64,000 nucleotides of DNA from an uncultured Armatimonadetes bacterium (GCA_963717145.1 OY970325.1:4576001-4640000), one strand, 5' to 3'; numbered from the stretch's first letter, positions 45,361 to 62,157 are shown. Notes: generated from the sequence alone by a model not told the origin. A program made the numbers and translations.

Positions 45361-45438
<78 letters not shown>

Positions 45439-47070: not shown

Positions 47071-48440
47071 GCGGATCGTGTAGTGGCCGTGCCTCCGTGC
47101 CGGCCTCCAACGTAGCAAGGCCGGCACGGAGGCACGGCCACTACATGATCTGCTTGTGCGCCCTGATGCTCCTCCTCCCGGCGATCGCACATGCCGCAGT
47201 CGAGAAGACCATCCTGAGCAACGGCCTCACCCTCATGGTCAAGCGCGAGCCCGAGTCCCGGACCGCCGCCATCGAGGTCTTCATCCGCGTCGGCGCGGCC
47301 CAGGAGAACAAACAGACCGCCGGGATCGGGCATCTCCTCGCCGGCACGCTGCTATCGGGCTCGGAAGGACGCACTCCCCGCAAGCTCTCGGAACTCGTGT
47401 CGGAGGTTGGCGGCAACTTCCACGCCGTCTGGCAGTGGGACTACATCGAGATCTACGCCGTGACGCTCCCGGGGATGTGCGACGAGGCGATCGGCCTGCT
47501 CGCGGAGTCGATCTCGCGGCCCTCTTTCGAGCCGGATGCCATCGAGAGCGCCAGGTCCGCGATCCTCAAGCAGATGAAGGCGCTCGAGGACAATCAGTAC
47601 AGCACCGGGTACAACATGCTCGCCGCGCAGGCCCACAAGGGCGATCCCTATGGCAGGCCCTACCTCGGCGATCCGGACGTCATCAGGGCGATCAACCGCC
47701 CGCAGTTGGAGGCATTCTACCGCAAGTACGTCGTCCCCAGCAGCATTGTGATCTCCGTCGTCGGCAACGTCGATCCCATGCGCATCTCGCGGCTCGTCGA
47801 GTTGCGGTTCGGCGGGATGGACTTCGCGCCCCAGAAGCCGACCGGCGTGCCATTCCGCTTCCGTCCCGAACCGCCCGAGGAGCCCGAGCCGCCCGCGCCC
47901 GAGCAAACCGCAGCCTCATACGTGATGCTCGGCTGGGTCGCGCCCGGAGCGGCGGACAAGGATTACCCCGCCGCGTGCATCGCGAACGTGCTCCTCGGCG
48001 GCAACAAGAGTTCGCTGATGTTCACGAAGCTGCGGGAAGGGCAGGGGATCGGGTATCAGGTCGGGAGCATCTACCCCCCGCTCAGGAAGTCCGGGCACAT
48101 CGCGGCGTATGTCGGGCTCGATTCCTCGCGCGGCGGCCCGGAGGTCACGCAGGCGGTCAAGACATCGGTGATGGGATTGGCCACGACCCTCGCGACCGGC
48201 GACTTCACGGATGAGGACATCGAGCGCGCCAAGAGCTACCTCATCGGATCGCACGCCCTGAAGCATGAGCGCGCCCGCGACCGGTCCTACTATCTGGGCC
48301 TCTACGAAGCGCTCGGCCTCGGCTTCCGGTACGACTCGACCTACGCGGCCTCGATCCGAGCGGTCACCCGCCCGGACCTCGAACGCGTCTGCGCCTTCAT
48401 CTTCATCGCCTCCCCGACCGTCGTCACCGTGGGGAGGTAG
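47067..48440 (+). CDS. M16 peptidase, non-catalytic subunit (start 47067 or 47145)
   Basis: LSNGL, GIGHLLAG (no HxxEH), SSLMFTKLRE…GY; ATGA overlap with the upstream gene. Confidence 0.9.
   Translation: MSGSCSGRASVPASNVARPARRHGHYMICLCALMLLLPAIAHAAVEKTILSNGLTLMVKREPESRTAAIEVFIRVGAAQENKQTAGIGHLLAGTLLSGSEGRTPRKLSELVSEVGGNFHAVWQWDYIEIYAVTLPGMCDEAIGLLAESISRPSFEPDAIESARSAILKQMKALEDNQYSTGYNMLAAQAHKGDPYGRPYLGDPDVIRAINRPQLEAFYRKYVVPSSIVISVVGNVDPMRISRLVELRFGGMDFAPQKPTGVPFRFRPEPPEEPEPPAPEQTAASYVMLGWVAPGAADKDYPAACIANVLLGGNKSSLMFTKLREGQGIGYQVGSIYPPLRKSGHIAAYVGLDSSRGGPEVTQAVKTSVMGLATTLATGDFTDEDIERAKSYLIGSHALKHERARDRSYYLGLYEALGLGFRYDSTYAASIRAVTRPDLERVCAFIFIASPTVVTVGR
47079..47145. repeat. GTAG REP doublet at the 5' end of the second M16 gene
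   Basis: tgtagtggccgtgcctccgtgccggcct … aggccggcacggaggcacggccactaca. Confidence 0.9.
48304..48440 (+). repeat. Direct repeat copy 1: M16 gene 3' end
   Basis: Ungapped 137-nt match to 62021-62157 with 21 mismatches by manual count. Confidence 0.93.
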
Positions 48441-48531
48441 CCTTCCTACTCATACTCCTAATCGTGATCGTACTCGTCCCCCGCCTCTCGTCTCTTCCGC
48501 TTGTTCTGTGGTATAATATCCGGGCGAGGAC

Positions 48532-48818
48532 ATGATGCATATCGGCCGCCTGGTTTTCAGAACGCACGAATCGAGCGAATGTTCAGACGATCCATCTCCG
48601 CCGACGACGTGCGGCGTGTGCTCTCATCCGGAGAGGTCATAGAGGACTATCCTCATGACACGCCATATCCCAGTCGGCTGATGCTTGGCTGGTGTGACAA
48701 TCGTGCGGTTCACGTCGTGGCCGCATGTAACCTCGATGCGAATGAGACCGTGGTCATCACGGTCTACGAGCCGGACCCCAAGCGGTGGTCGGTGGATTTC
48801 AGAAGGAGAAAGCAGTGA
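48532..48818 (+). CDS. DUF4258 family putative toxin, 1-nt deletion near 48568
   Basis: MMHIGRLVFRTH(A)IERMFRRSIS…VIEDYP…PYPSRL…VHVV…ITVYEPD; TGTGGTATAAT upstream. Confidence 0.8.
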
Positions 48819-49042
48819 AGTGCGTCATCTGCAAGCATGGTGAGACAGAGCCTGGGACGACTACGGTCACCCTTGAGCGGGACGGCATGACTCTCGTCAT
48901 CAAGGGAGTGCCCGCGCAGCTATGTGCCAACTGCGGCGAGGCGTATGTCGATGAGGAAACCACCTCCGGCCTACTCGCGACTGCCGAACAGCTCGTGAAG
49001 TCCGGCACCGAGGTCGAGATCAGGGAATACATGGCGGCGTAG
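48815..49042 (+). CDS. YgiT-type zinc-finger (MqsA-like) putative antitoxin
   Basis: KCVIC…VPAQLCANCGE; GTGA overlap with the toxin. Confidence 0.88.
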   Translation: MKCVICKHGETEPGTTTVTLERDGMTLVIKGVPAQLCANCGEAYVDEETTSGLLATAEQLVKSGTEVEIREYMAA

Positions 49043-49080
49043 AAGCACCTCCTCCTCGGCTACCGGTACGACATCGCCTC
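49042..49080 (+). repeat. Decayed partial copy of the M16 3'-end repeat
   Basis: gaagcacctcctcctcggctaccggtacgac vs gaagcgctcggcctcggcttccggtacgac. Confidence 0.55.
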
Positions 49081-49180
49081 CCCCCGCCGCCGTCGCGCCG
49101 CCATTGACCGCCTGCCTGAGACGTGATACCCTTATCACAAGCATGCAATCCGTCGCCGGGGGATTCCCAGGACATTCCGG

Positions 49181-51412
49181 ATGCCATACTCACTCCACCA
49201 GCAGCTCAAGCTGTTCAGTCGCGACCGCTTCGAGGAACTCTGCGGCCAACTCCTCAAGGCCGAGGACCCCTCGGTCGTCCCCGTCGAGGGCGCGGGCGGC
49301 GACGAGGGCGTCGACATATACAAGGGGCCGCTCGACACACCGAAGAACGAGCGCGCGGGCGAGAAGCTCCACGTCTGGCAGGTCAAGCACTTCCCCACGG
49401 GCCTAGGCGTGAGCCAGAAGAAACAGGCCAGAGAGTCCCTCAAGCGGGTGATCGCGACCCAGGACCCGGATAGCTGGACTCTCTGCGTCCCCTTCGAGTT
49501 CTCGCTCGGCGACCGCAGGTGGCTCGAAGACCTGCGGAAGGAATACCCCGGGCGCATCACTGAGCCGCTCGACGCCCCGGCGATCATGGCGCTCCTCGGC
49601 AAGCCGGAGAACCGGTCTCTTCTCGATGCGCACTTCCTCCTGCCGACCGATCAGCGGATCGCGAAGGAAGTGCTCGACCTCCTGACCGACTTCGACCTCG
49701 TGAGCGAGCGCCTGAGTGAGGAGAAGCTGCCCACGAAGACCGAGAGCGAGTTCTACAACGGCGCTGTCGCCGACTGGAAGGACATCTATGACGACCTGGA
49801 CGCCCGACGGGAGATCATCGGCGAGCTGTGGGACTTCGTGCTCGAGGCCGAGAAGAGCACCGGGGCGCTCGTGCCGTTCGCGGTGCTCACCGGGCTGAGC
49901 GGGGAGGGGAAGTCGACCGTCCTGCGTCGTCTCGCCGCCGAGTTGGTCCGCTCCGGGCGCAACGAGGTCTTCTGGCACAAGCCCGGCCGGAACGACCTGT
50001 CCGCCGAGCAGTTCTGCCATATGCCCAGAGGCGCGCTGGTCTATATCTTCATCGACAGCATCATGCTCTTTGGCCCGGACGCGATCGGGGGATTCCTCCA
50101 GCGGCTGAGGGACTTCCCGATCCGGCCGATCGTGATCTCAGCGGCGATCAACTCCCAATGGGACGGGTCAAGGCTGAATGTCGGCCAGTTCGCCGATGTC
50201 CGGGAGATCGAACTGGCGCACATGAGCCTGGCCGATGTGGAAACGCTTCTCGACAAGCTCTCCGAGGACGAAGAGCGTGCATCCGAGAACCTCGGCAAGC
50301 TGGCTAGGCTGAGCAGGGAGCAGCAGGTCAGCTGGTTCACGAAGGATGCCAAGCGGCAGCTCCTGGTTGCGCTGATCGAGGCCAAGGGCGGGCAGGGGTT
50401 CGAGCAGCACGTACTCGACGAGCTTCGGAAGCTCGACGGGGGTGAGGATGACCTCGTCCGTCAGGCCTGCATCTACGTCAGCGCCCTCCACCGCTTCGAC
50501 CTTCGCATGCCGAAGCGCCTCCTCCAGCGCCTCCTCGGGGAGGATGTCCTCCTCGAAGACCAGGTCCTCTCCAAGACCCACGGCCTCATCACCCTGATTT
50601 CCGACGAAGAGGAGTCGGTGATCACCCGCCATACTCTTGTCGCCCAGATCATCTACAAGTCCGAAGCCGGCGACAGCCCTGAGTGGTGCGAGCGGATTAT
50701 TGACGCGGGGGGGGAGGAAGATGACTTCCTGCTCTATTTCTGGTTGAGCGCAACGGTGGGTGCGAATCTCCGTCTGGCGATGCATCTGATAAGGCGTGAG
50801 AAGAAAGGCTCTTTCGGGGATGTCGGGATGGCTCCCACCTGGCCCTTATGGGATGAGCGTTGTGCCGAGCTCATGCGCAGCCGTGCATTCTACAGGAAGG
50901 CAACGCAAGAGGAGCCTGAGAATGCTAATCCCTGGTGCGAATGGGCGCATGTAGAGAACGCACTGGGGAACACCGGGGAGAAGGAAGACCCCGAGGCCTA
51001 CACCGCGAGGTGGCTGTTCATGAGGGCGACAGAGGCGGATCCGCACTACGCTTGGCTTTGGGAACAGTGGGCGGACATGGAGAAGGACGATGGAAACTGG
51101 GATGCTGCCGAGGGGTTGTACCGACGATCATTGAAGGAGACAGGCAAACCGCTATACCGCAGCCATGTGCATCACAAGTTGGGCGTCATGTTCTACTCGC
51201 TCGGTCGCATGGACGAAGCATGTGAGAACTTGGAACTGGCGGTCACCGAGATGTCTGGAGAATGGATGTCACACCACTGGCTCGCGCGTGCCTACCTGGA
51301 AAGACATCGTGTCGCGGACGCGGAGCGCCATTGCTGCATTGCGCTCAGACTCCAGCCAGACGACAGGGATACGCAGGAACTGCATGAGAAGATAAAGCGT
51401 GCCCGAGAGTAA
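49181..51412 (+). CDS. Restriction-endonuclease-like + STAND-like NTPase + TPR protein (Avs-like defence candidate)
   Basis: FEELC…GGDEGVD…QVK nuclease motif; GLSGEGKST Walker A; YIFID Walker B; C-terminal TPR/HAT repeats. Confidence 0.8.
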   Translation: MPYSLHQQLKLFSRDRFEELCGQLLKAEDPSVVPVEGAGGDEGVDIYKGPLDTPKNERAGEKLHVWQVKHFPTGLGVSQKKQARESLKRVIATQDPDSWTLCVPFEFSLGDRRWLEDLRKEYPGRITEPLDAPAIMALLGKPENRSLLDAHFLLPTDQRIAKEVLDLLTDFDLVSERLSEEKLPTKTESEFYNGAVADWKDIYDDLDARREIIGELWDFVLEAEKSTGALVPFAVLTGLSGEGKSTVLRRLAAELVRSGRNEVFWHKPGRNDLSAEQFCHMPRGALVYIFIDSIMLFGPDAIGGFLQRLRDFPIRPIVISAAINSQWDGSRLNVGQFADVREIELAHMSLADVETLLDKLSEDEERASENLGKLARLSREQQVSWFTKDAKRQLLVALIEAKGGQGFEQHVLDELRKLDGGEDDLVRQACIYVSALHRFDLRMPKRLLQRLLGEDVLLEDQVLSKTHGLITLISDEEESVITRHTLVAQIIYKSEAGDSPEWCERIIDAGGEEDDFLLYFWLSATVGANLRLAMHLIRREKKGSFGDVGMAPTWPLWDERCAELMRSRAFYRKATQEEPENANPWCEWAHVENALGNTGEKEDPEAYTARWLFMRATEADPHYAWLWEQWADMEKDDGNWDAAEGLYRRSLKETGKPLYRSHVHHKLGVMFYSLGRMDEACENLELAVTEMSGEWMSHHWLARAYLERHRVADAERHCCIALRLQPDDRDTQELHEKIKRARE

Positions 51413-51448
51413 GGGAAGCGCCGTCGGTGAGAATAGGTCGCACGTGCG

Positions 51449-51497
51449 GTTGAGACCGCGGGCGACGAAAGGCACGAAGTCCGCCTCCGCGGACTGG
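51449..51497. repeat. REP-like unit AGTCCGC-N-GCGGACT
   Basis: …ggcacgaagtccgcctccgcggactg hairpin. Confidence 0.6.
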
Positions 51498-51651
51498 GGC
51501 TGTGCCTCGGCAGACCGCCGATCTCCCTCCGAGTCAACTGCTGTTGGTGCGAGGCCTCGGAGTGTGACATCTGATTGGCTGAGTCTCCCGTCCATGCTAT
51601 AATAAGGCGGCGCTAGGCCGTCGATTCTACTTGAATGAGGAGGTCATCTTC

Positions 51652-53025
51652 ATGGCACTGGTTCGTCCCCGGCTCAATGATCACTACGACCTTCCATTCA
51701 CGCAATCGGACGTAGACTTCGCCATTCCTCTGCTGGACGAGGACATCCCTCTGTATGCTGATCCATTCCTGCTGTGGAACTCCCCCTCACAGCAGGACAA
51801 CTCCCTCCATACTACTCTGATCAGCGCCTTCAATCATTTGGGACGCATGGCTCGGAAGGGCAAGGAGGATGAGGCAGCAGCGATACTCGTTGCCCTCTCT
51901 GAGTGCCGCGAGGTCGGACTGGGGAGCGCTCGCAACAAGCAGGGCCATAGGATAGGGAAGAAGACCGCTCTGGAGATTCTGTCGCTCTTCGGCAAGATTC
52001 CACAGGTGGCAGAGCAGGGATTTGAGCATATCGAGGAGGTCCAGCTTTTCGTGGACCAGATTGCGGCGGACCGCATAAGCGACATCACCTGCAGCGTGGT
52101 CAAGTCATTCCTGATCGACTTCACGATCGACCAGTGTGTGAAGTGGGGGATACCGAGGACAGCAGTAGTCGTGACGGAACTGCTTGACACTAAGCGCATG
52201 CGTCTGACCTCGGAGACTCTTGAACTGCCTGTGAACCCGAACAGTGGAAGTCCTGTGCTCCTAGTGCCAAAGCGATGGCTGCGATACCAGCCGTGGATCA
52301 ACTACGAGGACTATTTCGATGATGCGTACTGCAAAGCTGTTGCTCAGCCAGGCGATGGCAAGGTCGATAGGATAGCCGTACTGAACTACAACCGTCAGAA
52401 CTACGGCATGGTGCAGACCTACGTGCGCGAGAAAGAGCGTACGCAGGCCGACTGCAAGAACGATCCGCTGTTCAAGGCGATACCGATCATTTCGGCGAAG
52501 CGAAAGCTGGCGGAGATACGCAGACTGCCTACCGGTAAGACCGGCGACGCGGACAAACGATATGAGGATCTCGCGTGCCAGTTGATGGCGTCGATGCTTT
52601 ACCCTCAACTGGATTTCGCCGATGAGCAGAGCAGGACGGATTCCGGCGTCTTGATTCGTGACCTGATCTTCTACAACAACCGAGCAATGGACTTCCTGCG
52701 GGACATCCGCGAGGACTATGGAAGCCGTCAGATCGTCTTCGAACTCAAGAACGTAGCGAAGATCGAGCGAGAGCACATAAACCAGATCAACCGATACATG
52801 GCGGACCAATTCGGCAAGTTTGGCGTGATTCTTACGCGGAACCCCTTGCCCAAAGCCATGTTTCAGAGTACCATAGACCTATGGTCAGGTCAGCGAAGGT
52901 GCATTATCGCGCTCACTGACATTGATGTCGAGATGATGGTGACTCTGTTTGAGAGCAAGCAGCGGTTGCCAGCGGAAGTACTCAAGAAGGTATACTTAGA
53001 GTTCACTCGTGCTTGTCCAGCATGA
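51652..53025 (+). CDS. Hypothetical protein with a C-terminal PD-(D/E)xK nuclease-like domain
   Basis: YEDLAC…RDLIFYN…IVFELKN…QINRY…FGVILTR; GAGGAGG SD; TGcTATAAT extended -10. Confidence 0.75.
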   Translation: MALVRPRLNDHYDLPFTQSDVDFAIPLLDEDIPLYADPFLLWNSPSQQDNSLHTTLISAFNHLGRMARKGKEDEAAAILVALSECREVGLGSARNKQGHRIGKKTALEILSLFGKIPQVAEQGFEHIEEVQLFVDQIAADRISDITCSVVKSFLIDFTIDQCVKWGIPRTAVVVTELLDTKRMRLTSETLELPVNPNSGSPVLLVPKRWLRYQPWINYEDYFDDAYCKAVAQPGDGKVDRIAVLNYNRQNYGMVQTYVREKERTQADCKNDPLFKAIPIISAKRKLAEIRRLPTGKTGDADKRYEDLACQLMASMLYPQLDFADEQSRTDSGVLIRDLIFYNNRAMDFLRDIREDYGSRQIVFELKNVAKIEREHINQINRYMADQFGKFGVILTRNPLPKAMFQSTIDLWSGQRRCIIALTDIDVEMMVTLFESKQRLPAEVLKKVYLEFTRACPA

Positions 53026-53046
53026 CAGCGGAAAGGAGTATAGGCG

Positions 53047-53436
53047 ATGAAGGCTGAGGATGTCGATTTCTTTGAGAAGGTGCAGGCGCAGTTGGGACAG
53101 CTACACAAAGAGATGAGTGCTCTTGCCAAGAGCAAGGCCGACAACCCCGTCAACAAGTTCAAGCTGAAGCTAATGAACCAGAAGTTGGCGGAAGCCAACA
53201 CTATCCTCGTAGGTGGCTTCGCCCCGTTCGAGGACTTCGAGACTTTTCCCGAGGAGGACTTACCATCCAACAGTGACGTCGTGATGGTGCTATCCCAGTA
53301 TCTGGAGTGTCTTGAGGGATGGAGATCGGCCAACGTAGTATACAACCCCAGCGACTACGAATGGTATTGGAAGACTGATGATCGTAGCAGCATCAAGTCA
53401 CGACAACCGTCGAGGTTCCGAGTGAACGCAAAGTGA
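53047..53436 (+). CDS. Small helical hypothetical protein, paralogue A
   Basis: AAGGAG SD; NKFKL, LPSNSDV, SQYL, WYW shared with the next gene. Confidence 0.85.
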   Translation: MKAEDVDFFEKVQAQLGQLHKEMSALAKSKADNPVNKFKLKLMNQKLAEANTILVGGFAPFEDFETFPEEDLPSNSDVVMVLSQYLECLEGWRSANVVYNPSDYEWYWKTDDRSSIKSRQPSRFRVNAK

Positions 53437-53462
53437 TGCAGAGAGGCGCAAAGCCAGGGACG

Positions 53463-53840
53463 ATGAAGAGGCAAGAAGTAGATGCGTTCGAGGCGCTCGA
53501 AGGACAGCTTGCCAGCTTGTACGACGAGATGCAGACCCTCGTAAAGAAGAGCCCGAATGACTTGATGAATAAGTTCAAGTTGCAGCTTGTAAACTCGATC
53601 CTGAAGCGGGTTAACGAGATGCTCGGTGATAAGCGCAAGCCGTTCCCCGATTTCTGCATGTTCGATCAGGACGTCTTACCTTCAAACAGCGATGTTCTCG
53701 TCATCGTCTCCCAGTATCTGAGTAGCATGGAGGAACTCAGAGTGGCCAACATCCACATGAGCGGGGGACGGTGGTACTGGACCATGACTGACGATTCCTC
53801 GACTAGGAGTGCCGCAACCCCGAGGAGGCTGCGCAAGTAG
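53463..53840 (+). CDS. Small helical hypothetical protein, paralogue B
   Basis: Aligns from MK…VD.FE with paralogue A (43 identities in the first 96 residues, no gaps). Confidence 0.85.
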   Translation: MKRQEVDAFEALEGQLASLYDEMQTLVKKSPNDLMNKFKLQLVNSILKRVNEMLGDKRKPFPDFCMFDQDVLPSNSDVLVIVSQYLSSMEELRVANIHMSGGRWYWTMTDDSSTRSAATPRRLRK

Positions 53841-54095: not shown

Positions 54096-54288
54096 TATCG
54101 AAACATCACAGGCGGCTATCCGGCGCGAAACGGTGCTTATCCCGGGCGAAGGGATACGTATCCCGGGCGAAAAGATAGCTATCCCGGGCGGCGGGATATG
54201 TATCTCGCCGGGAAGGATATGTATCTCGGCGCGGGGGATAGCGATCCCTCGCACCGGTATAGCTATCCCCGGCGGACCGATAGCGATC
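54096..54288. repeat. 21-nt-period tandem array (TATC-N11-GATA-N2), nine units
   Basis: Units start at 54096, 54117, 54138, 54159, 54180, 54201, 54222, 54243, 54264. Confidence 0.85.
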
Positions 54289-54355
54289 GGATTCGTAACG
54301 GGGGATGGGCGGGCGGATCGAGCGACCGTGCGACCCTCGGGAGGAGGAAATCATC

Positions 54356-55015
54356 GTGGCAAGAGATTACATCGTTCGGAAGGACCAGGAGTTCAATGCC
54401 TGGCTCGCGAACTTCATCACCAGTCTGAGTGCGCATTCGGCGGAATTCGGCCTTGTGCCGGAGGACCTGCTGCCCATCGAGGGCGAATCCACCGCCTTCG
54501 ATTCCGCGCTTACCTTACTGGAGCAGCGGCGAATCGCATTGAACTCGGCTTCGAAGAACAAGATGAGCAGGCGGGTCTCGACGGAGGCGGTCCTGCGCCC
54601 GCTCGTCCGCCGTATCACGGGCCATCCCGCGATGACCGACGGACTCCTGGGCCAACTGGGCCTGCCGGTTCGGAGAGTCCGCAAAGGAATCCTGCCGGTC
54701 GGACCAGAGGTCCCGGCGATACTCACCGAGGCCGCCCCGGGCCGGGTGATCATTCATTTTGGGACCGCGCCGGCGAACGAGCAGCGCAATGGAAAACCGG
54801 GATGGGCGAAGGGATGCAACATCTACCGCAGCAAGGCCGGCGAGTCTGACTTCCGGATGGTCGGCTTCGCGAGCGCATCTCCGTATGTCGATGAGGTGGT
54901 AGGAGCGGGATCGGATTACACGTACTACGTCCAGTATCGGGGAACGAAGGCCACCCAACTGGGTCAAGGCTCGCATCAGATGACCGTCGCGGCCCGTGGG
55001 TTGGAGGCGGCGTAG
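54356..55015 (+). CDS. Hypothetical protein: helical N-domain plus FN3/Ig-like C-domain
   Basis: GTG after GAGGAGG; DYIVRKDQEFNAW start; IIHFG…GKP…GCNIY…SPYVD…YTYYVQY beta pattern. Confidence 0.8.
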   Translation: MARDYIVRKDQEFNAWLANFITSLSAHSAEFGLVPEDLLPIEGESTAFDSALTLLEQRRIALNSASKNKMSRRVSTEAVLRPLVRRITGHPAMTDGLLGQLGLPVRRVRKGILPVGPEVPAILTEAAPGRVIIHFGTAPANEQRNGKPGWAKGCNIYRSKAGESDFRMVGFASASPYVDEVVGAGSDYTYYVQYRGTKATQLGQGSHQMTVAARGLEAA

Positions 55016-55020
55016 GGGGA

Positions 55021-55096: not shown

Positions 55097-55098
55097 CC

Positions 55099-55653
55099 CT
55101 ACATGTATTTCTCGCCGAGCCGGTCGAGGAGCGCGTGATATCGCTCGTGGACTCCCGGCCCGATGCGCTCCTGCTCGACCCGCTCGAATTCAGTCGTCAA
55201 CCTCGCATGCTCGTCCTCGCACAGATGCTGCTCGGCCATGCAGAAGAGGATGTTGTTCTCCTTCTCGATGTGCTCGGTGAGAAGCTGAACGTATCCATGG
55301 GCCGCCGATGCGAACGCCTTCCGCGCATCCGGATCGCCCTCACGGATGCCGGGCAGCGCATCGGCCATCCCTCGGACGAACTCCCGCCCACATTTGTGCT
55401 CGGTCAGCATCACGCCGATCGGCCCGCCCTCCCTCGGGATTCCGACCTTCTCGAGAGCGGGGAACAGCAGGTCCTCTTCCTTCCCATGGTGGCATCGGTC
55501 GGCAAATGTCTTGATGAAGTCCACCAGGCCGTCCAGATCGTCGGCCTCCACCGTGCGTCCGGCCTCGAGGTCGTCGGCCAGGCGGTCGAGGACGGCGATC
55601 GCGACCTTGATCCCCTCGTGTTCGTCTCGCAGTTCCTGGGTTGCGTATGTCAT
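55099..55653 (-). CDS. Hemerythrin (HHE) domain protein
   Basis: DEHEGI, FADRCHHGKEEDLLFP, MLTEH, HIEKENNILF. Confidence 0.93.
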   Translation of the reverse strand: MTYATQELRDEHEGIKVAIAVLDRLADDLEAGRTVEADDLDGLVDFIKTFADRCHHGKEEDLLFPALEKVGIPREGGPIGVMLTEHKCGREFVRGMADALPGIREGDPDARKAFASAAHGYVQLLTEHIEKENNILFCMAEQHLCEDEHARLTTEFERVEQERIGPGVHERYHALLDRLGEKYM

Positions 55654-55698
55654 GCATCATTGTTACCCGGAAGCGAGTGCAGCTACACGTCACGTGGT

Positions 55699-55748
55699 CC
55701 CCGGTGCTTCGGCAGCGCCGCCGGGCCTCTGCTACCGAAGCATCGGGG
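55699..55748. repeat. REP-like palindrome (copy 2 of 2)
   Basis: Near-identical to 1228-1267. Confidence 0.85.
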
Positions 55749-55955
55749 AATGGGGGGCGGCATTCTCCTTTGTCAGCAGGTCACTCTGACGGAGGGATGG
55801 AGCACAATATCTTTGTGAAGGAAGGAACAATCGCCGGCATGCCGAAGCATAGCGTAATGTAGTAAAATCAGAATGCACCTGCGGCGCTATCCGAGGGTAT
55901 CTCGGGCTGAGACAATGCCGCAGAGTCGCAGCAACATCGAGAGGAGTTTTCGCAA

Positions 55956-56243
55956 GTGCTTCACGAACCAGCATCACCTCAAGGGAAGGACTACGCGGCG
56001 GCGTTCAAGATGCGGTTGGGCGTCTGGATGTTCATCTGCTACTCACTGTTCTACGCCGGCTTCGTCGCCATCAACCTGTACAGCCCGGTGCTCATGGAGA
56101 AGATCGTGCTCTTCGGGCTGAACCTGGCCACGGTCTACGGGTTCGCGCTGATCATCGTGGCGCTGATCCAGGCCCTGGTCTACGACGGGCTCTGCCGCCG
56201 CCAGGAGCGTCTGCTCGGCGGGCGGTCGACCGAGGAGGAGTAA
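55956..56243 (+). CDS. DUF485 family small membrane protein
   Basis: Two TM helices, FGLNLATVYG; precedes an SSS symporter. Confidence 0.85.
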   Translation: MLHEPASPQGKDYAAAFKMRLGVWMFICYSLFYAGFVAINLYSPVLMEKIVLFGLNLATVYGFALIIVALIQALVYDGLCRRQERLLGGRSTEEE

Positions 56244-58156
56244 GTGACATGGTGCATCAGCATTTTCCTCGGATTCGTGCTCTTCGTCCTCGGCCTGTCG
56301 TTCTACCTCGGCAACAGAGACCGACGACCTCCAGCGGCTACTACGCCGCCGGCGGGCAGATCCACTGGGGCGTCAACGGCATCGCCTTCGCCGGCGACTA
56401 CCTTTCGGCCGCCTCGTTCCTGGGCATCTGCGGCATGATCGCCACCGTCGGCTACGACGGCTTCCTCTACTCCATCGGCTACCTGGCCGGCTGGATCGTC
56501 GCGCTCTTCGTCGTGGCCGAGCCGATGAAGCGGCTGGGCAAGTACACCTTCACCGACGCCGTGGACTCCAAGTTCAACTCGCGCGGCATCAAGCTGGCGG
56601 CCGCGATCAGCACGCTGGTCGTCTCCGTCTGCTACCTGATCCCGCAGATGGTCGGCGCCGGCGTGCTGGTGGAGCCGCTGCTGGGCCTGGCGCACCACTG
56701 GGGCGTGATCATGGTCGGCGCGATCGTCATCACCATCGTGGCCACGGCCGGCATGGCCTCCACGACCTACGTGCAGTTCCTCAAGGGCGCGCTGCTGATC
56801 GTCTTCTCGACGGTGCTGGTGATCGCGGTCTGCGTCCGCGGCTTCAACACCCAGCCCGACCAGGGCGGCAAGGTGCCGTTCCACGAGTACAAGACGCTGG
56901 CCGCGCAGAAGGTCGACGGACAGCTCGCGGTGACCGAGCCGGGCTGGCAGGTCGTCGAGGTGCAGGAAGTCAAGGCCGCCAAGGCGACGCTTCGCTCAAG
57001 CTGGCGAAGGACGGCAAGGAGACCTGGTGGCTGGTCGACGACAAGGACGGCGTGGTATCGCTGGAGGAGACGCAGTCCGTCGTGATCACCAAGGACGGCC
57101 GCAAGCTCATCAACGGCGCGCCGGCCTCGAAGGAGAACGCCCTGCGCCAGGTCGGCAACATCGAGCAGCTGCGCGGGCAAGAGGTAGCGCCGAAGGGCAG
57201 CGTCTCGCCGTTCGAGTTCCTCGCCGCCCTGTCCGACAAGGACACGGTCGTGCGCCGCTGGAAGGACGCGAAGTTCGCCGACAAGGACGGCGCCAAGGTG
57301 ACCGTCTACTTCCCGTGCGCACACCGAGGGCAACCAGCTGATGCGCCCGGGCCTGAAGTTCAAGGTGCAGGGCACGCCGCTGGAGAAGCTCGACTTCGTC
57401 TCGCTGATGCTGGCGCTCTTCCTCGGCACGGCCGCCCTGCCGCACATCCTGATCCGCTACTACACCGTGCCCAACCCGGCCAGCCGCGCGCAAGTCCACC
57501 ATCGTGGCCATCGCCGCCATCGGGTTCTTCTACATCCTGACGCTGTTCATGGGCCTGGGCGCGATGATCAACGGCGTGATGAACCCGGCCGACAGCAACA
57601 TGGCCGCGCCGCTGCTGGCCCGTTCCTTCGGCAACTTCCTGTTCGCCGTCATCTCGGCCATCGCGTTCGCCACCGTGCTGGGCACGGTCAGCGGCCTGAT
57701 CGTGGCCGCCTCCGGCGCGGTGGCCCACGACTTCATGCGACCGCTTCCTGAACCGTCAGATGGACGACCACCAGAAGATCCGAGCCGGCAAGATCTCGGC
57801 CTTCGTCGTCGGCGCCATCGCCATCGTCCTGGGCATCCTCTTCAAGGGCATGAACGTGACGTTCCTGGTCGGCCTGGCCTTCGCGGTGGCGGCGTCGGCC
57901 AACCTGCCCGCCGATCCTGATGCTGCTGTTCTGGAAGAGGACGACCGCCAAGGGCATCACGGCGTCCATCTTCGTGGGCATCGTCTCGTCGCTGGCGCTG
58001 ATCGCCTTCTCGCCGGACCTGTACAAGCTGTACGGCCTGGACCCGACCACGGCGCCCATCCCGTTCACCAACCCGGGCATCATCTCGATCCCGCTGAGCT
58101 TCCTCACGCTGATCGTGGTGTCGCTGGTCACGAAGCGGGTCGAGGCCGCGGCTTAG
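56244..58156 (+). pseudogene. actP: ActP-like sodium:solute (cation/acetate) symporter broken by about six frameshifts (decay or assembly error)
   Basis: GDYLSAASFLG, PQMVGAG, GTAALPHILIRYYTVP, AIAFATVLGTVSGL, AASANLP, NPGIISIP motifs in shifting frames. Confidence 0.8.
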
Positions 58157-58185
58157 GAGATTAGTCCAACGGACGCCTTCCCGCG

Positions 58186-58259
58186 CGCTGTAGGGGCGTG
58201 CCTTGTGCCGCCCCCGGCGCGCGGTGAGACCAGGCGGCACAAGGCACGCCCCTACAGCG
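58186..58259. repeat. GTAG REP doublet
   Basis: cgctgtaggggcgtgccttgtgccgcc … ggcggcacaaggcacgcccctacagcg. Confidence 0.9.
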
Positions 58260-58298
58260 TTGCGGGGAGGCGTCCGTTCGAGGGCCGAGAGAGAGCGT

Positions 58299-61200
58299 AT
58301 GAAGGGTACCACGCGCGTCGATCTCCACTGTCACTCGATCTACAGCGACGGGACACTCGCGCCCCGCGACATTGCCGAACACCTCGCCGCGAACGGCGTG
58401 ACTGCGGCCGCCCTCACGGATCATGACAGCATCGACGGCCTCGCGGAGTTCTCGCGGACGTTGGCGCGTCGGGGAGTCGCACACATCACGGGCGTCGAGA
58501 TCACGGCCACGTGCCGGGGGAAAGAGGCGCACCTGCTCGGCTTCGGCTTCGATCCCGCGCACTCGGAACTCCGGACGGTCCTGCCGTCACTGCGTCAGGG
58601 CAGGACTCTCGACGTACATAGCATCGCCGGCTCCATCCGCAAGATGGGCTCGCCCCCTCAGACCGAGTCGGGCGCGGAGAGTGCCGGCTCTGACGGGCGG
58701 ATCGACATCTCCGAGGCGATCGCCCTCATCCACCGTGCGGGCGGATGCGCGGTCCTGGCGCATCCCTTGATCCTCGAACCGGACCTCGCCGAGCTGGAGA
58801 GTCTGCTGGCTGCTCTGAAGGACGACGGACTTGACGGCATTGAGGCGATCTACGAATCGTTCACCAACGATCAGCGCAAGCATCTGTGCGCGATGGCGAA
58901 GAGGCTCGACCTCATCGTGAGCGGGGGCACGGACGTTCACGACCGCAAGCCGCAGGACAGCTCAGAGGCGGGCATCCAGATGCCGACCGAGCTGTGGAAG
59001 GAGTTCCGCGACTCCGTCTGCTTCAACAATCCGCAGGCGCTGCAGGGCGTTCCCGCTTCGACCCCGCTGCACCCGCGGCGACGTCTGCAGTGGCGGCATT
59101 TCGCATTCCATTTCATGTTTCCCACCTTCCTGGCGATCGCGCTGTTCGTGACTGCCATCTATGCCGTCTTCCTCCCGACGTTCGAGAGGTCGCTCCTCGA
59201 CCGCAAGCGCGAGATGATACGGGAACTCACCAACTCGGCGTGGAGCATCCTGGCCGGGTATGAGCGAGATGAGCGAGCGGGCAGGCTGACTCGCGAACAG
59301 GCTCAGGAAATGGCTCGGTCGCGTGTCGAGTCGCTCCGCTATGGCCGCGAAGGCAAGGACTACTTCTGGCTGCAGGACATGCACCCGCGTATCATCATGC
59401 ATCCCTACCGGAAGGATCTGAACGGCAAGGATGTGTCGATCTTCCAGGATCCGCGCGGCGTTCGGATCTTCGTGAAGTTTGCCGACCTCGTCCGTCGCCA
59501 CGGGGAGGGCTACATCGAATACGTTTGGCAGTGGAAGGACGACCCGAGCCGCCTCGTCCCGAAGGAGTCGTACATCAAGGGATTCCAGCCGTGGGGATGG
59601 ATCATCGGGACAGGCATTTACATCGAGGATGTGAACGAGGAGATCGCGCGAGTCGAACGGCGTCTCGTTCATACATCGCTCGGCATCTCCTTGATCGTCG
59701 TCCTGCTTCTCCTCTACGTGATGCGTCAGAGTCTTTGGTTGGAACGCGAGCGCTCCGAGGCCGAAGAGAGCCTTCAGGAATCCACGGAACGGTATCGCTC
59801 GCTTGTCGAGGCCACCACCGAAGGCACGCTGCTGGTAATGCACGGCCGCCCTCGATATGCGAATCATATCTTCCTCAAGATGCTCGGATGCACGCAGCGC
59901 GAACTCGAGTTCCTCGATCTGTCGGACCTGTTCCCGGACATCAAGGACAACGAGCGCGCGAGGGCAAGTGTGAATCGCCTACTGCGCGGCGATGAGTCGG
60001 TGGAGGGCTTCGACGCCACAATGAAGCGACGGGACGGCACGCTCATCGAGTGCGTTCTGACCCCAAGCCGGATCTCGTTCGCGGGTGGAAGCGGCTTCAT
60101 CCTGCTGACTCGGGATGTCGGCATCACCCCCGAGGGCGGAGGAGTGCGGGACGGATTGGACAAGCGCTGGCATCGCCTTCAGCAGGTCGTGGACGGCCTC
60201 CCGGTCGGTCTCTTCCGTGCGCGGGCCAATTCACGGGGAGCACTGATCGACAGCAATCCGGCCGCTGTGAGGCTTCTGACCGTCGCGGATGCGCCCGATG
60301 ACGCGCCGATCACTCTGTCAGGTCTATTCGATGACGCCAGGCTTTACGACATGTTCCTGCAGGATCTCCGCAAGCAGGGAAGGGCCGAGCGCCGTTTCCA
60401 TGTCACCTCCAAAGACCCGGGCACGAAGATGGTGGCGATCGTCGCCGTTCTTGTGAGAGACAGTGGAGGGGGGGCCGACTACATCGACGGAATCGTACAG
60501 GACATCACCCTTCAGGATAAGCGCGCCACGGAGCTGAACGCGGTGGTGGATAAGCTCCAGGCCACCCTGCTCTTCCTCCACGAGCCGGTAAGCCACATCG
60601 GCCGCAGCATCGTCTTCTGCAAACTGGACACTCCCATCCGCTCCGTCGCGGCCCTCATGTCCGAGCAGGGGTCGAGCGCCGCCCTGATCCAATCGGATGA
60701 CGGCAGCACGGTGGGGATTGTGACCGACAGCGACTGTCGAGCGCGCGTCGTGGCCGCCGGACTCGATCGTCAAGAGCCCGTCTCGCGGATCATGAGTTCC
60801 CCTCTGGTGGTCATCCCCGAGAGCGCCGAGATCTACGAGGCTCTGCTGCTGATGGAACAGAAGGGTGTCCAGCACCTGGCGGTCGCCGATGAGGCGGGGC
60901 GGATAGTGGGGGTCGTCCGAAACCAGGAGCTTCTGCAGTTCGAGAGCTACGGCCCGATCGTGCTGACGCGGGAAGTGGAGCAAGCCGGTACGCCGGAGGA
61001 AGTAGTGGCGTGCTGTCGGCGCGCCCCGGGCCTGGCAAGATCGCTCCTGAACTGCGGGGCCCATCCGCGTCATGTGACCCGCATGATCTCGTCCGTCTGT
61101 GATGCCGCGACAGTGCGCCTGATCGCCCTTGCCGAAGCGGAACTCGGCCCATCGCCTCTACCATTCGTCTTCCTGGCACTCGGCAGTCACGGCCGGCAGG

Positions 61201-62000
61201 AGATGACGCTGTCTAGCGACCAGGACAACGCCATCGTATACGCTCCGCCGCCCGACGCCGGTGCTCAGCCGCAAGTGGATGAGTACCTGGGCAAGCTGAG
61301 CCGATTCGTGTGTGAGACTCTCGATCGGGCGGGATACCCCTTCTGCCGGGGGGATGTGATGGCGCAGAACCCCAAATGGTGCAAGTCGCTCTCCGTGTGG
61401 AAGCAGTATTTCAGCGACTGGATCGAACGTGCCGAGCCCCAGCAGTTGCTGGAGTTCGCAATCTTCTTTGACTTCCGGCCTGTGTCGGGTGCGATGGAAC
61501 TTGCCCACGAGCTGCGACGCCACGTGTACACGGCGCTACGTTCACGCGCGTTGTTCTTCCCTTACTTCGCTCAGAACTCTCTTCTGTTCAAGCCCCCGGT
61601 TCGGCTTTTTGGCCGGATCTTGGTGGGCGGGGCAGGCGGCGAGTCTCATGGGCTTCTCGATCTCAAGGATGCCATGATGCCGATCGTCAGCTTCGCCCGG
61701 CTCTACGCCCTTCGAGCGGAGTTGGACGACACGCATACGCTCGACCGGTTGAACGCACTGGTGGAGGCGAAGGTACTCCCGGAGTCGAGTCGTCAGGAGG
61801 TCACCACGGCTTACGAGTTTCTGATGCGCCTGCGCCTCCAGCATCAGGCGGGTGAGATCCCTTCGGGACAGGAACCGGATAACGTAATCAACTACCGCAG
61901 GTTGGGTCAACTCGAGGAAACGCTCCTGAACCAGTCCTTCGCAGAGATCGCGGCCGTCCAGAAGCGCATCAGCTACGACTTCCTGGGCGGCACGTCCTGA
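58299..62000 (+). CDS. PHP + Cache + PAS + CBS + DUF294 nucleotidyltransferase multidomain protein
   Basis: DLHCHSIYSDG, LTDHD, GGTDVH; TM-DYFW…MHP…GWIIGTGIY-TM; PAS-like segments; CBS pair; LGSHGRQEMTLSSDQDN, FFDFR, DLK. Confidence 0.9.
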   Translation: MKGTTRVDLHCHSIYSDGTLAPRDIAEHLAANGVTAAALTDHDSIDGLAEFSRTLARRGVAHITGVEITATCRGKEAHLLGFGFDPAHSELRTVLPSLRQGRTLDVHSIAGSIRKMGSPPQTESGAESAGSDGRIDISEAIALIHRAGGCAVLAHPLILEPDLAELESLLAALKDDGLDGIEAIYESFTNDQRKHLCAMAKRLDLIVSGGTDVHDRKPQDSSEAGIQMPTELWKEFRDSVCFNNPQALQGVPASTPLHPRRRLQWRHFAFHFMFPTFLAIALFVTAIYAVFLPTFERSLLDRKREMIRELTNSAWSILAGYERDERAGRLTREQAQEMARSRVESLRYGREGKDYFWLQDMHPRIIMHPYRKDLNGKDVSIFQDPRGVRIFVKFADLVRRHGEGYIEYVWQWKDDPSRLVPKESYIKGFQPWGWIIGTGIYIEDVNEEIARVERRLVHTSLGISLIVVLLLLYVMRQSLWLERERSEAEESLQESTERYRSLVEATTEGTLLVMHGRPRYANHIFLKMLGCTQRELEFLDLSDLFPDIKDNERARASVNRLLRGDESVEGFDATMKRRDGTLIECVLTPSRISFAGGSGFILLTRDVGITPEGGGVRDGLDKRWHRLQQVVDGLPVGLFRARANSRGALIDSNPAAVRLLTVADAPDDAPITLSGLFDDARLYDMFLQDLRKQGRAERRFHVTSKDPGTKMVAIVAVLVRDSGGGADYIDGIVQDITLQDKRATELNAVVDKLQATLLFLHEPVSHIGRSIVFCKLDTPIRSVAALMSEQGSSAALIQSDDGSTVGIVTDSDCRARVVAAGLDRQEPVSRIMSSPLVVIPESAEIYEALLLMEQKGVQHLAVADEAGRIVGVVRNQELLQFESYGPIVLTREVEQAGTPEEVVACCRRAPGLARSLLNCGAHPRHVTRMISSVCDAATVRLIALAEAELGPSPLPFVFLALGSHGRQEMTLSSDQDNAIVYAPPPDAGAQPQVDEYLGKLSRFVCETLDRAGYPFCRGDVMAQNPKWCKSLSVWKQYFSDWIERAEPQQLLEFAIFFDFRPVSGAMELAHELRRHVYTALRSRALFFPYFAQNSLLFKPPVRLFGRILVGGAGGESHGLLDLKDAMMPIVSFARLYALRAELDDTHTLDRLNALVEAKVLPESSRQEVTTAYEFLMRLRLQHQAGEIPSGQEPDNVINYRRLGQLEETLLNQSFAEIAAVQKRISYDFLGGTS

Positions 62001-62020
62001 GAGAGGGGACAGCGGGCTCG

Positions 62021-62157
62021 ACGAAGCGCTCGGCCTCGGCCACAGGTACGATATGACCTACGCTGACGCCATCCGTTCCGTCACCCGCCCGGACCTCGAA
62101 CGCGTCTGCGCCGACATCTTCACCTCGCCCCCGACCGTCGTCACCGTCGGGCGGTAG
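62021..62157 (+). repeat. Direct repeat copy 2: orphan alternative M16 3' end
   Basis: Encodes EALGLGHRYDMTYADAIRSVTRPDLERVCADIFTSPPTVVTVGR*, with no start codon. Confidence 0.93.

What the first reader, a model, noticed from the sequence alone, without database searches (positions are those of the whole stretch)
48304..62157. Repeated copies of a housekeeping gene's 3' end delimit defence cassettes, with no integrase in view
Seen: the last 137 nt of the second M16 gene, ending exactly at its TAG, recur at 62021-62157 without gaps (about 85% identical). The copy is still in frame and encodes a variant C-terminus. A decayed third copy sits at 49042-49080. Copy 1 is followed by a TA pair, the decayed copy by the nuclease-STAND-TPR gene, and copy 2 by a SIR2 gene. 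Known: integrative elements carry a replacement 3' end of their target gene. Inference: this is a tandem-accretion defence hotspot in which cassettes headed by an M16 gene end are stacked or swapped, by homologous recombination or a recombinase in trans. The shared 20-nt core acgaagcgctcggcctcggc is a candidate crossover site.
Basis: partly seen in the sequence, partly recalled or inferred. Interest (0 to 1): 0.85.

Follow-up and report, generated by a model that had tools for sequence, protein, structure and literature searches.

The report
Duplicated defence hotspot, not attachment sites
The repeated end of a peptidase gene is real, but it is one edge of a larger old duplication that also copied the neighbouring hemerythrin gene, leaving two copies of an integrase-free defence-gene landing site side by side, each with different cargo.

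Summary
The repeat is real: 48297-48447 and 62014-62164, 151 nt, 83% identical, gapless, and the only two copies in the 5.37 Mb genome. The "third copy" is at chance level.

The hemerythrin gene on the other side of the site is also present twice, at 85.5% over 572 nt.

A ~90% identical metagenome contig shows the empty site: M16B, about 170 nt of spacer, a convergent hemerythrin, then a 1522-aa gene.

The layout here is:
- M16B, then cargo 1 (toxin-antitoxin pair, nuclease-STAND-TPR, PDC-M36), then hemerythrin 1
- DUF485, broken SSF symporter, DUF294 sensor
- M16B 3' remnant, then cargo 2 (split Dsr1), then hemerythrin 2, then the 1522-aa gene

The two hemerythrins are sister genes (bootstrap 98) and both are under purifying selection. 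Soil-metagenome contigs from two studies bridge the sensor/remnant junction at 90-93% identity, so the structure is old and not an assembly error.

No recombinase was found in the island. The nearest serine recombinase is about 260 kb away and the nearest tyrosine recombinase about 2 Mb away.

The identical "core" runs are conserved coding sequence, also present at the empty site.

Verdict: an integrase-free hotspot whose whole frame was duplicated. It is not a tandem array bounded by att sites. Interest is modest.

The parts
45679..47070 (+). M16A peptidase, first gene of the M16 pair (left core flank)
   Evidence: Pfam Peptidase_M16 2.5e-32 and M16_C 2.8e-20. Collinear in 5 of the 5 same-family relatives fetched.
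47067..48440 (+). M16B peptidase, left flank of the hotspot. The real start is probably near 47148, because relatives align from residue 27-28.
   Evidence: Pfam M16_C 1.6e-25 and M16 8.5e-20. Orthologs found in 41 of 41 genomes searched, the window's own included. 87% aa identity to L036.
48297..48447 (+). Repeat copy 1 (a1): the functional 3' end of M16B plus 7 nt
   Evidence: 128/144 identical to the L036 M16B end.
48501..49042 (+). Toxin-antitoxin-like pair: DUF4258 (48501-48818) and MqsA/YgiT zinc-finger protein (48785-49042). Start of cargo 1.
   Evidence: Pfam DUF4258 4.3e-22 and MqsA_antitoxin 4.4e-08. TIGR03831 YgiT finger 4.2e-14.
49043..49080 (+). Alleged decayed third copy: not supported
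   Evidence: nhmmer profile E = 4, rank 16 genome-wide. Not among the 40 places listed. About 0.3% of 1992 random windows score as well.
49181..51412 (+). Nuclease-STAND NTPase-TPR protein, 743 aa (cargo 1)
   Evidence: Pfam nSTAND_NTPase5 9.5e-22, TPR families, weak Mrr_cat. PADLOC LmuA-like N-terminus 7.8e-11.
51631..53840 (+). PDC-M36 candidate defence system: one A gene (51631-53025) and two B genes (53047-53436, 53433-53840). Cargo 1, GC about 53-57%.
   Evidence: PADLOC PDC-M36A 6.6e-229; PDC-M36B 8.5e-45 and 1.5e-46. Composition.
54117..54290 (.). Tandem 21-nt units with TATCCC...GGGATA palindromes, upstream of ORF 54305-55015
   Evidence: The 11-mer occurs 5 times in the genome, 3 of them here.
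54305..55015 (+). ORF of a multi-copy family with no Pfam hit. A homolog lies near the hemerythrin in G001.
   Evidence: At least 10 paralogs at 40-46% aa identity in the genome. No Pfam family. 49% aa match in G001 upstream of its hemerythrin.
55099..55653 (-). Hemerythrin copy 1 (H1), intact, 184 aa. The duplicated block is 55118-55688. Its twin H2 lies just right of the window (L029:3938-4504, window-equivalent 65938-66504).
   Evidence: Pfam Hemerythrin 1.1e-22. 85.5% nt over 572 nt to H2 and 87% aa. Sister of H2 with UFBoot 98.
55689..55955 (.). Junction J1 (55688|55689), followed by 267 nt of unassigned sequence that begins with a hairpin
   Evidence: Homology of H1, H2 and L036 stops sharply 35 nt upstream of the hemerythrin ATG.
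55956..58164 (+). DUF485 ORF (55956-56243) and a sodium:solute symporter pseudogene (56249-58164) with at least 6 frame switches
   Evidence: Pfam DUF485 2.8e-06. SSF 4.7e-37. tblastn of the intact 632-aa G013 ortholog runs through frames 1,3,2,3,1,2,3.
58203..62000 (+). PHP-Cache-PAS-CBS-DUF294 nucleotidyltransferase-type sensor, intact, 1265 aa. Last gene of the inserted module.
   Evidence: Pfam. No paralog in the genome. Found in 0 of 10 same-family genomes, but in G038 (66% aa) and G013 (about 48-49% aa) with the same DUF485-SSF-sensor order.
62014..62164 (+). Repeat copy 2 (a2): a promoterless remnant of the M16B 3' end. Junction J2 lies at 62013|62014, 13 nt after the sensor's stop codon.
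   Evidence: Stop codons lie upstream in its frame. D replaces an otherwise invariant Y and H replaces an aromatic residue. Junction bridged by metagenome contigs X1 record 8 and X2 record 16.
62208..64000 (+). N-terminal (SIR2) part of a Dsr1-type defence gene (cargo 2). It runs on beyond the window, where it is split into 671-aa and 581-aa overlapping ORFs.
   Evidence: Pfam SIR2_2 3.1e-19. PADLOC Dsr1 1.3e-38 (model positions 9-310) and 3.1e-34 (761-1222 of 1248). NCBIfam NF041818, below its cut-off. ORFs.

Best explanation
The 151-nt repeat is not an attachment site. It is the left edge of a duplicated block that originally ran from 144 nt before the M16B stop codon, across the short spacer, through the convergent hemerythrin gene, to 35 nt beyond its start codon. 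In the empty state this block is about 0.9 kb.

One duplicative insertion placed a foreign DUF485-SSF-DUF294 sensor module (55689-62013) between the two copies. This could have been a single homologous crossover with a circular DNA carrying a copy of the block joined to that module. It could equally have been an illegitimate insertion between staggered sister copies.

The event created two copies of the spacer between the M16B stop and the hemerythrin stop. This spacer is a recombinase-free landing site. The two copies now hold different defence cargo:
- the left one holds a toxin-antitoxin pair, a nuclease-STAND-TPR gene and PDC-M36;
- the right one holds Dsr1.

Cargo most likely enters and leaves by homologous recombination in the conserved flanking genes.

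Copy 2 of the M16B end has no gene in front of it and is decaying. Both hemerythrin copies stayed functional.

What is shown:
- both duplications and their sharp junctions;
- the empty site in a relative;
- the absence of recombinases;
- the sister relation and purifying selection of the hemerythrins;
- the age of junction J2.

What is inferred:
- that a single event made both duplications;
- the circular intermediate;
- that cargo turns over by flank recombination.
For: - Two collinear duplicated blocks have like divergence. The M16B end is 83% over 151 nt and the hemerythrin is 85.5% over 572 nt. There are no other repeats in 45-68 kb apart from REP hairpins.
- Metagenome contig L036 is about 90% nt identical and has M16B, about 170 nt, hemerythrin(-), then the 1522-aa gene. 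This is the unduplicated empty site.
- In G001 the frame M16B ... hemerythrin(-) - 1522-aa gene is kept around 18.6 kb of other genes. In G004 the 1522-aa gene follows M16B after about 200 nt.
- Both novel junctions are sharp and both touch the same inserted module: J1 at 55688|55689 and J2 at 62013|62014.
- The module is foreign to the family. The sensor was found in 0 of 10 same-family genomes, and it has the same three-gene order in G038 and G013.
- In the codon tree {H1,H2} separate from {L036 + 8 outgroups} with UFBoot 98. Third-position identity is 71% against 91-92% at positions 1 and 2.
- Contigs from two soil-metagenome studies bridge J2 at about 93% and 90% identity.
- The genome has 3 PF00589 hits, all at least 2 Mb away. 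The nearest PF00239 hit is about 260 kb away. No recombinase or transposase family appears in any of the roughly 90 ORFs scanned across 48.3-66.8 kb.
- The 33-nt and 20-nt identical runs are also 33/33 and 19/20 in L036. Informative sites show no crossover pattern.
- A 185-nt tract of M16B (47973-48157) has 1 mismatch to L036 against about 12% background. Third-position identity is 95% over 47961-48200, which contains the tract, against 78% on either side. This is the footprint expected of homologous exchange in the flank.
- Oliveira et al. 2017 (PMC5635113; passages read) describe integrase-free hotspots with raised recombination in the flanking core genes.
Against: - Only one close relative with the site (L036, 5 kb) is available, so 'hotspot' rests on three states in the genus plus more distant genera.
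- In the other genera the interval holds mostly non-defence genes.
- No intermediate or circular form was observed.
- The left ends of copy 2 and of the doubtful third copy lie near the same position of the M16B end. One metagenome contig stops matching after position 47 of copy 2, which is close to where the third copy ends. A site-specific process would explain that coincidence better.
- The tree cannot separate an in-lineage duplication from capture of the block from a close sister lineage.
- The near-identical tract in M16B could in principle reflect constraint rather than recombination.
Confidence: 0.62

Rival explanations
1. Site-specific tandem accretion. Elements carrying a replacement M16B 3' end integrate into the M16B end through a tyrosine or serine recombinase that is encoded elsewhere or has been lost. 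Copy 1, the third copy and copy 2 would then be att sites.
For: - The repeat ends 7 nt after the stop codon and keeps M16B intact, as with islands that target gene 3' ends.
- The left boundary of copy 2 is sharp.
- The doubtful third copy lies exactly between the toxin-antitoxin pair and the STAND gene. Its nominal chance of falling in this interval is about 0.04.
- One metagenome contig leaves copy 2 after about 47 nt.
Against: - There is no recombinase in the island or within about 260 kb.
- Only 2 significant copies exist in the genome.
- The hemerythrin flank is duplicated as well, which an att model does not predict.
- The identical runs are shared with the empty site, and there is no mosaic.
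- No copy closes the Dsr1 cassette on the right.
- The right-hand cargo boundaries differ by 25 nt between the two units.
Confidence: 0.1
2. Capture of a foreign allele. A relative's whole hotspot allele (M16B end, cargo 1, hemerythrin, sensor module) entered by one homologous crossover in M16B and one illegitimate join 144 nt before the resident stop codon (homology-facilitated illegitimate recombination). On this view the roughly 15% divergence of the repeats was present from the start.
For: - The repeats differ by 15-17% and the cargo sets are unrelated.
- Copy 2 keeps residues shared with other M16B proteins (S22, acidic 34, T37, PP) where copy 1 is unique.
- A recombination-like tract in M16B lies next to the site.
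Against: - H1 and H2 are each other's closest relatives, UFBoot 98 against L036. The donor would therefore have to be closer than L036.
- The donor would need hemerythrin followed by the sensor module, an order seen in none of the genomes searched.
- Junction J2 is shared by lineages 7-10% apart, so the event is not recent.
Confidence: 0.2
3. Assembly chimera. Two strain haplotypes of one locus were joined in tandem by the assembler.
For: - The genome scores 4.89% contamination by marker genes.
- The two units look like alleles of one locus.
Against: - 6.3 kb of unrelated sequence separates the units, and the junctions are not at shared sequence.
- Independent metagenome contigs from two studies bridge J2.
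- Both hemerythrins show long independent evolution under selection.
Confidence: 0.02

Closest known systems
Integrase-free horizontal-transfer hotspots between core genes (Oliveira et al. 2017, PMC5635113; passages read)
   Same: A variable interval lies between conserved genes. It has no integrase or transposase. There are signs of homologous exchange in a flanking core gene. Cargo differs between relatives.
   Different: Here the whole frame (the ends of both flanking genes) is duplicated in tandem around an inserted module, so one genome holds two copies of the landing site. The passages read do not describe that.
Core defence hotspots cDHS1/cDHS2 of Pseudomonas aeruginosa (Johnson et al. 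2023, PMC10250203; passages read)
   Same: Defence systems gather between fixed core flanks. Many sites there have no mobile gene (29% and 47% by that paper). That paper proposes transfer of whole sites through the conserved flanks.
   Different: The phylum is different (Armatimonadota, by the names that sources give to homologs). The cargo is much smaller. Occupancy is known for one genome and one empty relative only. Those hotspots adjoin a tRNA or tmRNA gene directly. Here a tRNA-Pro lies 3 kb away, beyond the M16 pair.
Genomic islands integrated in the 3' end of a gene with a replacement end (att direct repeats, tandem arrays); recalled from general knowledge
   Same: A direct repeat of a gene's 3' end brackets foreign DNA, and the target gene stays intact.
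   Different: There is no recombinase. The repeats are 83% identical, with no core beyond ordinary coding conservation. The opposite flank is duplicated as well. Only two copies exist.
Campbell-type single-crossover integration giving a merodiploid duplication, and homology-facilitated illegitimate recombination; recalled from general knowledge, no paper read
   Same: The topology is a block of chromosomal homology present twice as direct repeats on either side of inserted DNA.
   Different: No circular donor was seen. The duplication is old and has diverged, and each copy has since acquired its own cargo.

Membership tests
Integrase-mediated island with att direct repeats (tandem accretion) | A tyrosine or serine recombinase gene in or beside the island | tested here: not met
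   None among about 90 ORFs of 48.3-66.8 kb or in the 14 ORFs scanned in the first 20 kb to the right. The 3 PF00589 hits lie at 0.94, 2.21 and 2.57 Mb. The nearest PF00239 hit is at 4.90 Mb, with the island at 4.624-4.643 Mb.
Integrase-mediated island with att direct repeats (tandem accretion) | An identical core shared by the repeats that is specific to the recombination site | tested here: not met
   The longest identical runs (33, 20 and 19 nt) are coding sequence. The first two are also 33/33 and 19/20 in the empty-site relative. There is no switch of informative sites along the repeat.
Integrase-mediated island with att direct repeats (tandem accretion) | Only the att sequence is repeated; each further island adds a further copy | tested here: not met
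   A 572-nt hemerythrin block is repeated too. Only 2 M16B-end copies exist in the genome. The third is at chance level.
Integrase-free hotspot between core genes | The same flanking genes in relatives with different content between them, including an empty state | tested here: met
   L036 is empty (about 170 nt). The genome's own site holds cargo 1 and cargo 2. G001 holds 18.6 kb of other genes between M16B and hemerythrin. G004 has about 200 nt and G009 about 2 kb before the 1522-aa gene.
Integrase-free hotspot between core genes | Signs of homologous recombination in the flanking core genes | tested here: inconclusive
   One 185-nt tract with 1 mismatch against about 12% background in M16B. 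This is a single pair of sequences with no population sample.
Segmental duplication by duplicative insertion (Campbell-type) | Two direct copies of one contiguous chromosomal block, directly flanking the inserted DNA, with sharp ends | tested here: met
   The blocks [M16B end ... hemerythrin + 35 nt] lie on both sides of 55689-62013. The junctions are sharp at 55688|55689 and 62013|62014.
Segmental duplication by duplicative insertion (Campbell-type) | The copies are each other's closest relatives | tested here: met
   H1 and H2 are sisters, UFBoot 98. For the short M16B end the result is unclear: copy 1 is nearer to L036 (128/144) than to copy 2 (121/144). This is as expected if copy 2 drifts freely.
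Dsr1 (defence-associated sirtuin) | One protein of about 1250 aa with an N-terminal SIR2 domain and the Dsr1 C-terminal region, scoring above the family cut-off | tested here: not met
   It is split into 671-aa and 581-aa overlapping ORFs that cover model positions 9-310 and 761-1222. The NCBIfam scores of 163.6 and 115 bits are far below the 1400-bit cut-off. It is Dsr1-like and probably broken.
PDC-M36 (PADLOC candidate system) | Adjacent A and B genes matching both models over their full length | tested here: met
   A: 6.6e-229 over model positions 1-457/457. B: 8.5e-45 and 1.5e-46 over about 1-124/125, in two tandem B genes. No paper in the library holds the name. A defence function has not been tested.

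The most novel reading that the evidence does not exclude
The M16B end does hold a recombination site used by an unrecognised recombinase acting in trans, or by a recombinase-free mechanism. The site would lie near positions 10-47 of the repeat. That is where the doubtful third copy lies, and position 47 is where one metagenome relative leaves copy 2. Cassettes would then be stacked one after another behind partial copies of the gene end. Alternatively, duplication of a whole hotspot frame may be a general, selected way for bacteria to keep two alternative defence alleles at once.
Probability: 0.08. Interest if true: 0.7.

Novelty: new variant of a known kind. Interest (0 to 1): 0.3.

Why it matters
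Defence islands without mobility genes are common, and how they are built is still debated. This locus keeps a readable record of one such history. It shows an empty site in a relative, and an old duplication of the site's whole frame caused by the insertion of an unrelated gene module. It then shows independent filling of the two copies with different defence systems. It also shows that a repeated gene 3' end is not enough to call an att site, because the opposite flank must be checked as well. The case is a single locus in an uncultured-type lineage (Armatimonadota, by the source names), so its weight is anecdotal.

Tried and rejected
- The third copy (49043-49080) was tested three ways: own-genome BLAST, random-window control and nhmmer profile. 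It was rejected as not distinguishable from chance.
- Mosaic or crossover patterns were sought in the M16B-end copies and in the hemerythrins (38, 40 and 44 sites of the three patterns, evenly spread). None was found.
- Terminal inverted repeats of the inserted module: none link 55.7 kb and 62.0 kb among the 25 longest of 75 inverted pairs listed.
- The promoter and terminator scan of 48-64 kb gave counts equal to shuffled sequence. It was not used.
- Public runs: no run held more than 5% of the sampled words, so the source reads were not available. Empty-site reads, circle joints and junction J1 could not be tested.
- In the three soil runs no contig was laid on 62828-64000 and next to none on 62227-62827. 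This says nothing firm about Dsr1 in those organisms.
- The joints listed in table 5 have short sides (21-23 letters where they span the island) and were ignored.
- Ultra-conservation of the 33-nt run beyond the genus was checked. It does not hold in G001 or further relatives.
- Earlier findings of the scan were not open.
No further close relatives could be fetched.
- The name PDC-M36 occurs in no paper of the library.
- Supplementary files were not consulted.

Full report
**Observation**

The repeat exists. The repeat finder reports 48297-48447 and 62014-62164, 151 nt, 83% identical and without gaps. BLASTN gives E about 4e-40. Searching the whole 5.37-Mb single-contig genome with copy 1 finds these two places and nothing else better than E = 0.06.

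Copy 1 is the true 3' end of the second M16 peptidase gene (M16B, 47067-48440; Pfam). Copy 2 begins 13 nt after the stop codon of an unrelated 1265-aa gene. It stays open in the M16B frame for 47 codons plus TAG, with 37 of 47 residues identical. It has stop codons upstream in that frame. Its nucleotide differences fall 10/5/8 on codon positions 1/2/3.

The proposed third copy (49042-49080) does not hold up:
- A profile of the three available versions of the M16B end scores it E = 4, rank 16 in the genome.
- A plain local alignment score of 19 is reached by about 0.3% of 1992 random windows. That is about 0.4 expected chance hits in the 13.7 kb between the copies.

**Gene content**

From left to right:
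- M16A and M16B.
- A DUF4258 / MqsA-YgiT toxin-antitoxin-like pair.
- A 743-aa protein with a nuclease-like N-terminus, an nSTAND5 NTPase domain and TPR repeats.
- The PADLOC candidate system PDC-M36, with one A gene (E 7e-229) and two B genes.
- An array of 21-nt palindromic units.
- An ORF of a multi-copy family.
- A hemerythrin gene on the minus strand (H1, 55099-55653).
- A DUF485 ORF.
- A sodium:solute symporter gene broken by at least six frame switches.
- An intact PHP-Cache-PAS-CBS-DUF294 sensor gene (58203-62000).
- Copy 2 of the M16B end.
- A Dsr1-like SIR2 gene, split beyond the window into 671-aa and 581-aa overlapping ORFs.
- A second hemerythrin gene (H2, L029:3938-4504, minus strand).
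- A 1522-aa M28/MacB/FtsX gene.

**The missed duplication**

A self-comparison of 45-68 kb shows a second direct repeat. Positions 55118-55688 match window-equivalent 65969-66539 at 85.5% over 572 nt, which is the hemerythrin gene plus 35 nt upstream. The proteins are 87% identical.

The locus therefore reads as two collinear units of the form [M16B end - cargo - hemerythrin], separated by the DUF485-SSF-sensor module (55689-62013).

Both joints with that module are sharp. Homology between H1, H2 and the relative L036 stops at 55688. Homology between the M16B ends starts at 62014.

**Relatives**

No same-genus genome is held. A metagenome contig (L036, 5060 bp) is about 90% identical in nucleotides. 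It shows M16A, M16B, about 170 nt, hemerythrin (minus strand), REP-like repeats and the 1522-aa gene. This is the unduplicated, empty site.

Homology of both units to L036 ends right after the M16B stop codon. On the other side it ends at or 25 nt beyond the hemerythrin stop.

In other genera of the family:
- G001 keeps the same frame, M16B ... hemerythrin(-) - 1522-aa gene, around 18.6 kb of mixed genes. These include a glycoside-hydrolase-like gene, an Mrr nuclease and a Ser/Thr kinase, and no recombinase.
- In G004 the 1522-aa gene follows M16B after about 200 nt. In G009 it follows after about 2 kb.

The interval is therefore variable across the family. Relative to the empty state, this genome has about 18.3 kb inserted.

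**Origin of the middle module**

The sensor has no paralog in the genome. It was found in 0 of 10 same-family genomes. It does occur, with the same DUF485-SSF-sensor order and no M16 or hemerythrin gene in the 19 kb fetched around it, in G038 (66% aa) and G013 (about 48-49% aa) of other families. It is therefore acquired DNA.

**Age and reality of the structure**

A codon tree of the hemerythrins, with L036 and eight more distant sequences, separates {H1,H2} from all others with ultrafast bootstrap 98. H1 and H2 are 71% identical at third positions against 91-92% at positions 1 and 2. They are sister genes that have both evolved under purifying selection for a long time.

Copy 2 of the M16B end carries D at an otherwise invariant Y and H at an aromatic position. 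It is the most divergent of the three versions: 120/144 to L036, against 128/144 for copy 1. This is expected of a remnant without function.

Logan contigs of soil metagenomes from two studies lie across the sensor-stop / copy 2 joint. X1 record 8 covers 61506-62060 at about 93% identity. X2 record 16 covers 61767-62072 at about 90%. The joint therefore exists in other lineages and is not an assembly artefact of this genome. The source reads themselves were not available.

**Recombinases**

The genome has three PF00589 matches (0.94, 2.21 and 2.57 Mb) and seven PF00239 matches. The nearest of the latter is at 4.90 Mb, about 260 kb from the island at 4.624-4.643 Mb.

No recombinase or transposase family appears in the main ORFs. 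None appears in 66 further ORFs of at least 75 aa on both strands of 48.3-66.8 kb.

**The 'core'**

The longest identical runs between the copies are 33, 20 and 19 nt. The 33-nt run is identical in L036 and the 20-nt run is 19/20. In G001 and beyond the stretch varies.

Sites where copy 1 or copy 2 agrees with L036 are interspersed, without a switch point. The runs are conserved coding sequence, not a recombination core.

**Mechanism**

The most economical reading is a single duplicative event. In it, a block from 144 nt before the M16B stop to 35 nt upstream of the hemerythrin start came to lie on both sides of the incoming sensor module. In the empty state this block is about 0.9 kb.

This is the topology left by a single homologous crossover with a circular DNA that carried a copy of the block joined to the module. 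An illegitimate insertion between staggered sister copies would give the same result.

After the event, or partly before it, the two spacer copies received different cargo. The cargo boundaries lie where flank conservation ends. On the hemerythrin side they differ by 25 nt between the units. This fits replacement by homologous recombination in the flanks rather than a precise enzyme.

A 185-nt tract of M16B (47973-48157) has one mismatch to L036 against about 12% background. Third-position identity is 95% over 47961-48200, which contains the tract, against 78% on either side. This is the kind of footprint such exchange leaves.

The literature describes the general class:
- Many hotspots lack mobile elements and show raised recombination in flanking core genes (PMC5635113, passages read).
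- Core defence hotspots in P. aeruginosa often lack any mobile gene, and that paper suggests they may move through their conserved flanks (PMC10250203, passages read).

**What remains open**

The tree does not tell an in-lineage duplication from capture of the block from a close sister lineage. I give the latter about 0.2.

A site-specific process is not excluded. Three things would fit a site near positions 10-47 of the repeat: the sharp left end of copy 2, the location of the doubtful third copy exactly between two cassettes, and the fact that one metagenome contig stops matching after position 47 of copy 2. I give this about 0.1.

'Hotspot' in the strict, within-species sense rests on only three states.

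**Verdict**

It is wrong that the gene-end copies delimit cassettes or mark a crossover site. The repeats are one edge of an old duplication of the whole hotspot frame. This is a variant of a known kind of locus, of modest interest.

Noticed in passing
window 46399-46485 and 47080-47144: A 27-nt palindromic REP-like family has 266 copies at up to 2 mismatches in the genome. One hairpin pair lies inside the M16A reading frame. It corresponds to a 24-28-aa insertion that G001, G008 and G004 orthologs lack, so it is an in-frame REP insertion in a coding gene. Another pair fills the gap between the M16A stop and the likely real M16B start.
   Followed up: partly
window 47973-48157: A 185-nt stretch of M16B has a single mismatch to metagenome contig L036, against about 12% divergence on both sides. 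Third codon positions are included (95% identity over 47961-48200 against 78% on either side). It looks like a recent recombination tract between lineages.
   Followed up: partly
window 56249-58164: The sodium:solute (ActP-like) symporter gene has at least six frame switches relative to intact 632-aa and 636-aa orthologs. Within the pieces it still shows 52-86% aa identity to the G013 ortholog (76-86% in five of the seven pieces). The sensor gene next to it is intact over 1265 aa.
   Followed up: partly
L029:208-3841 (window-equivalent 62208-65841): The Dsr1-like gene is split into 671-aa and 581-aa ORFs that overlap by 128 nt. Together they cover the Dsr1 model, so there is probably one frameshift near window-equivalent 64096-64223.
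   Followed up: partly
window 54117-54290: About eight tandem 21-nt units each contain a TATCCC...GGGATA palindrome, so this is probably an array of protein-binding sites. The motif is practically unique to this place in the genome. It is not found upstream of nine paralogs of the downstream ORF.
   Followed up: partly
window 54305-55015: A 236-aa ORF without any Pfam, NCBIfam or PADLOC match belongs to a family with at least 10 paralogs at 40-46% aa identity across the genome. A 49% identical homolog sits near the hemerythrin gene in G001.
   Followed up: no
window 45361-45438 (minus strand): A tRNA-Pro(cgg) gene lies just upstream of the M16 pair. The DNA just upstream of M16A is conserved in G001 and G006. 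The variable interval is 3 kb away from the tRNA gene, not adjacent to it.
   Followed up: no
L036:2816-3050: The spacer between hemerythrin and the 1522-aa gene in the relative is filled with short repeats. These match well over a hundred places in the window's genome at 80-97% identity.
   Followed up: no
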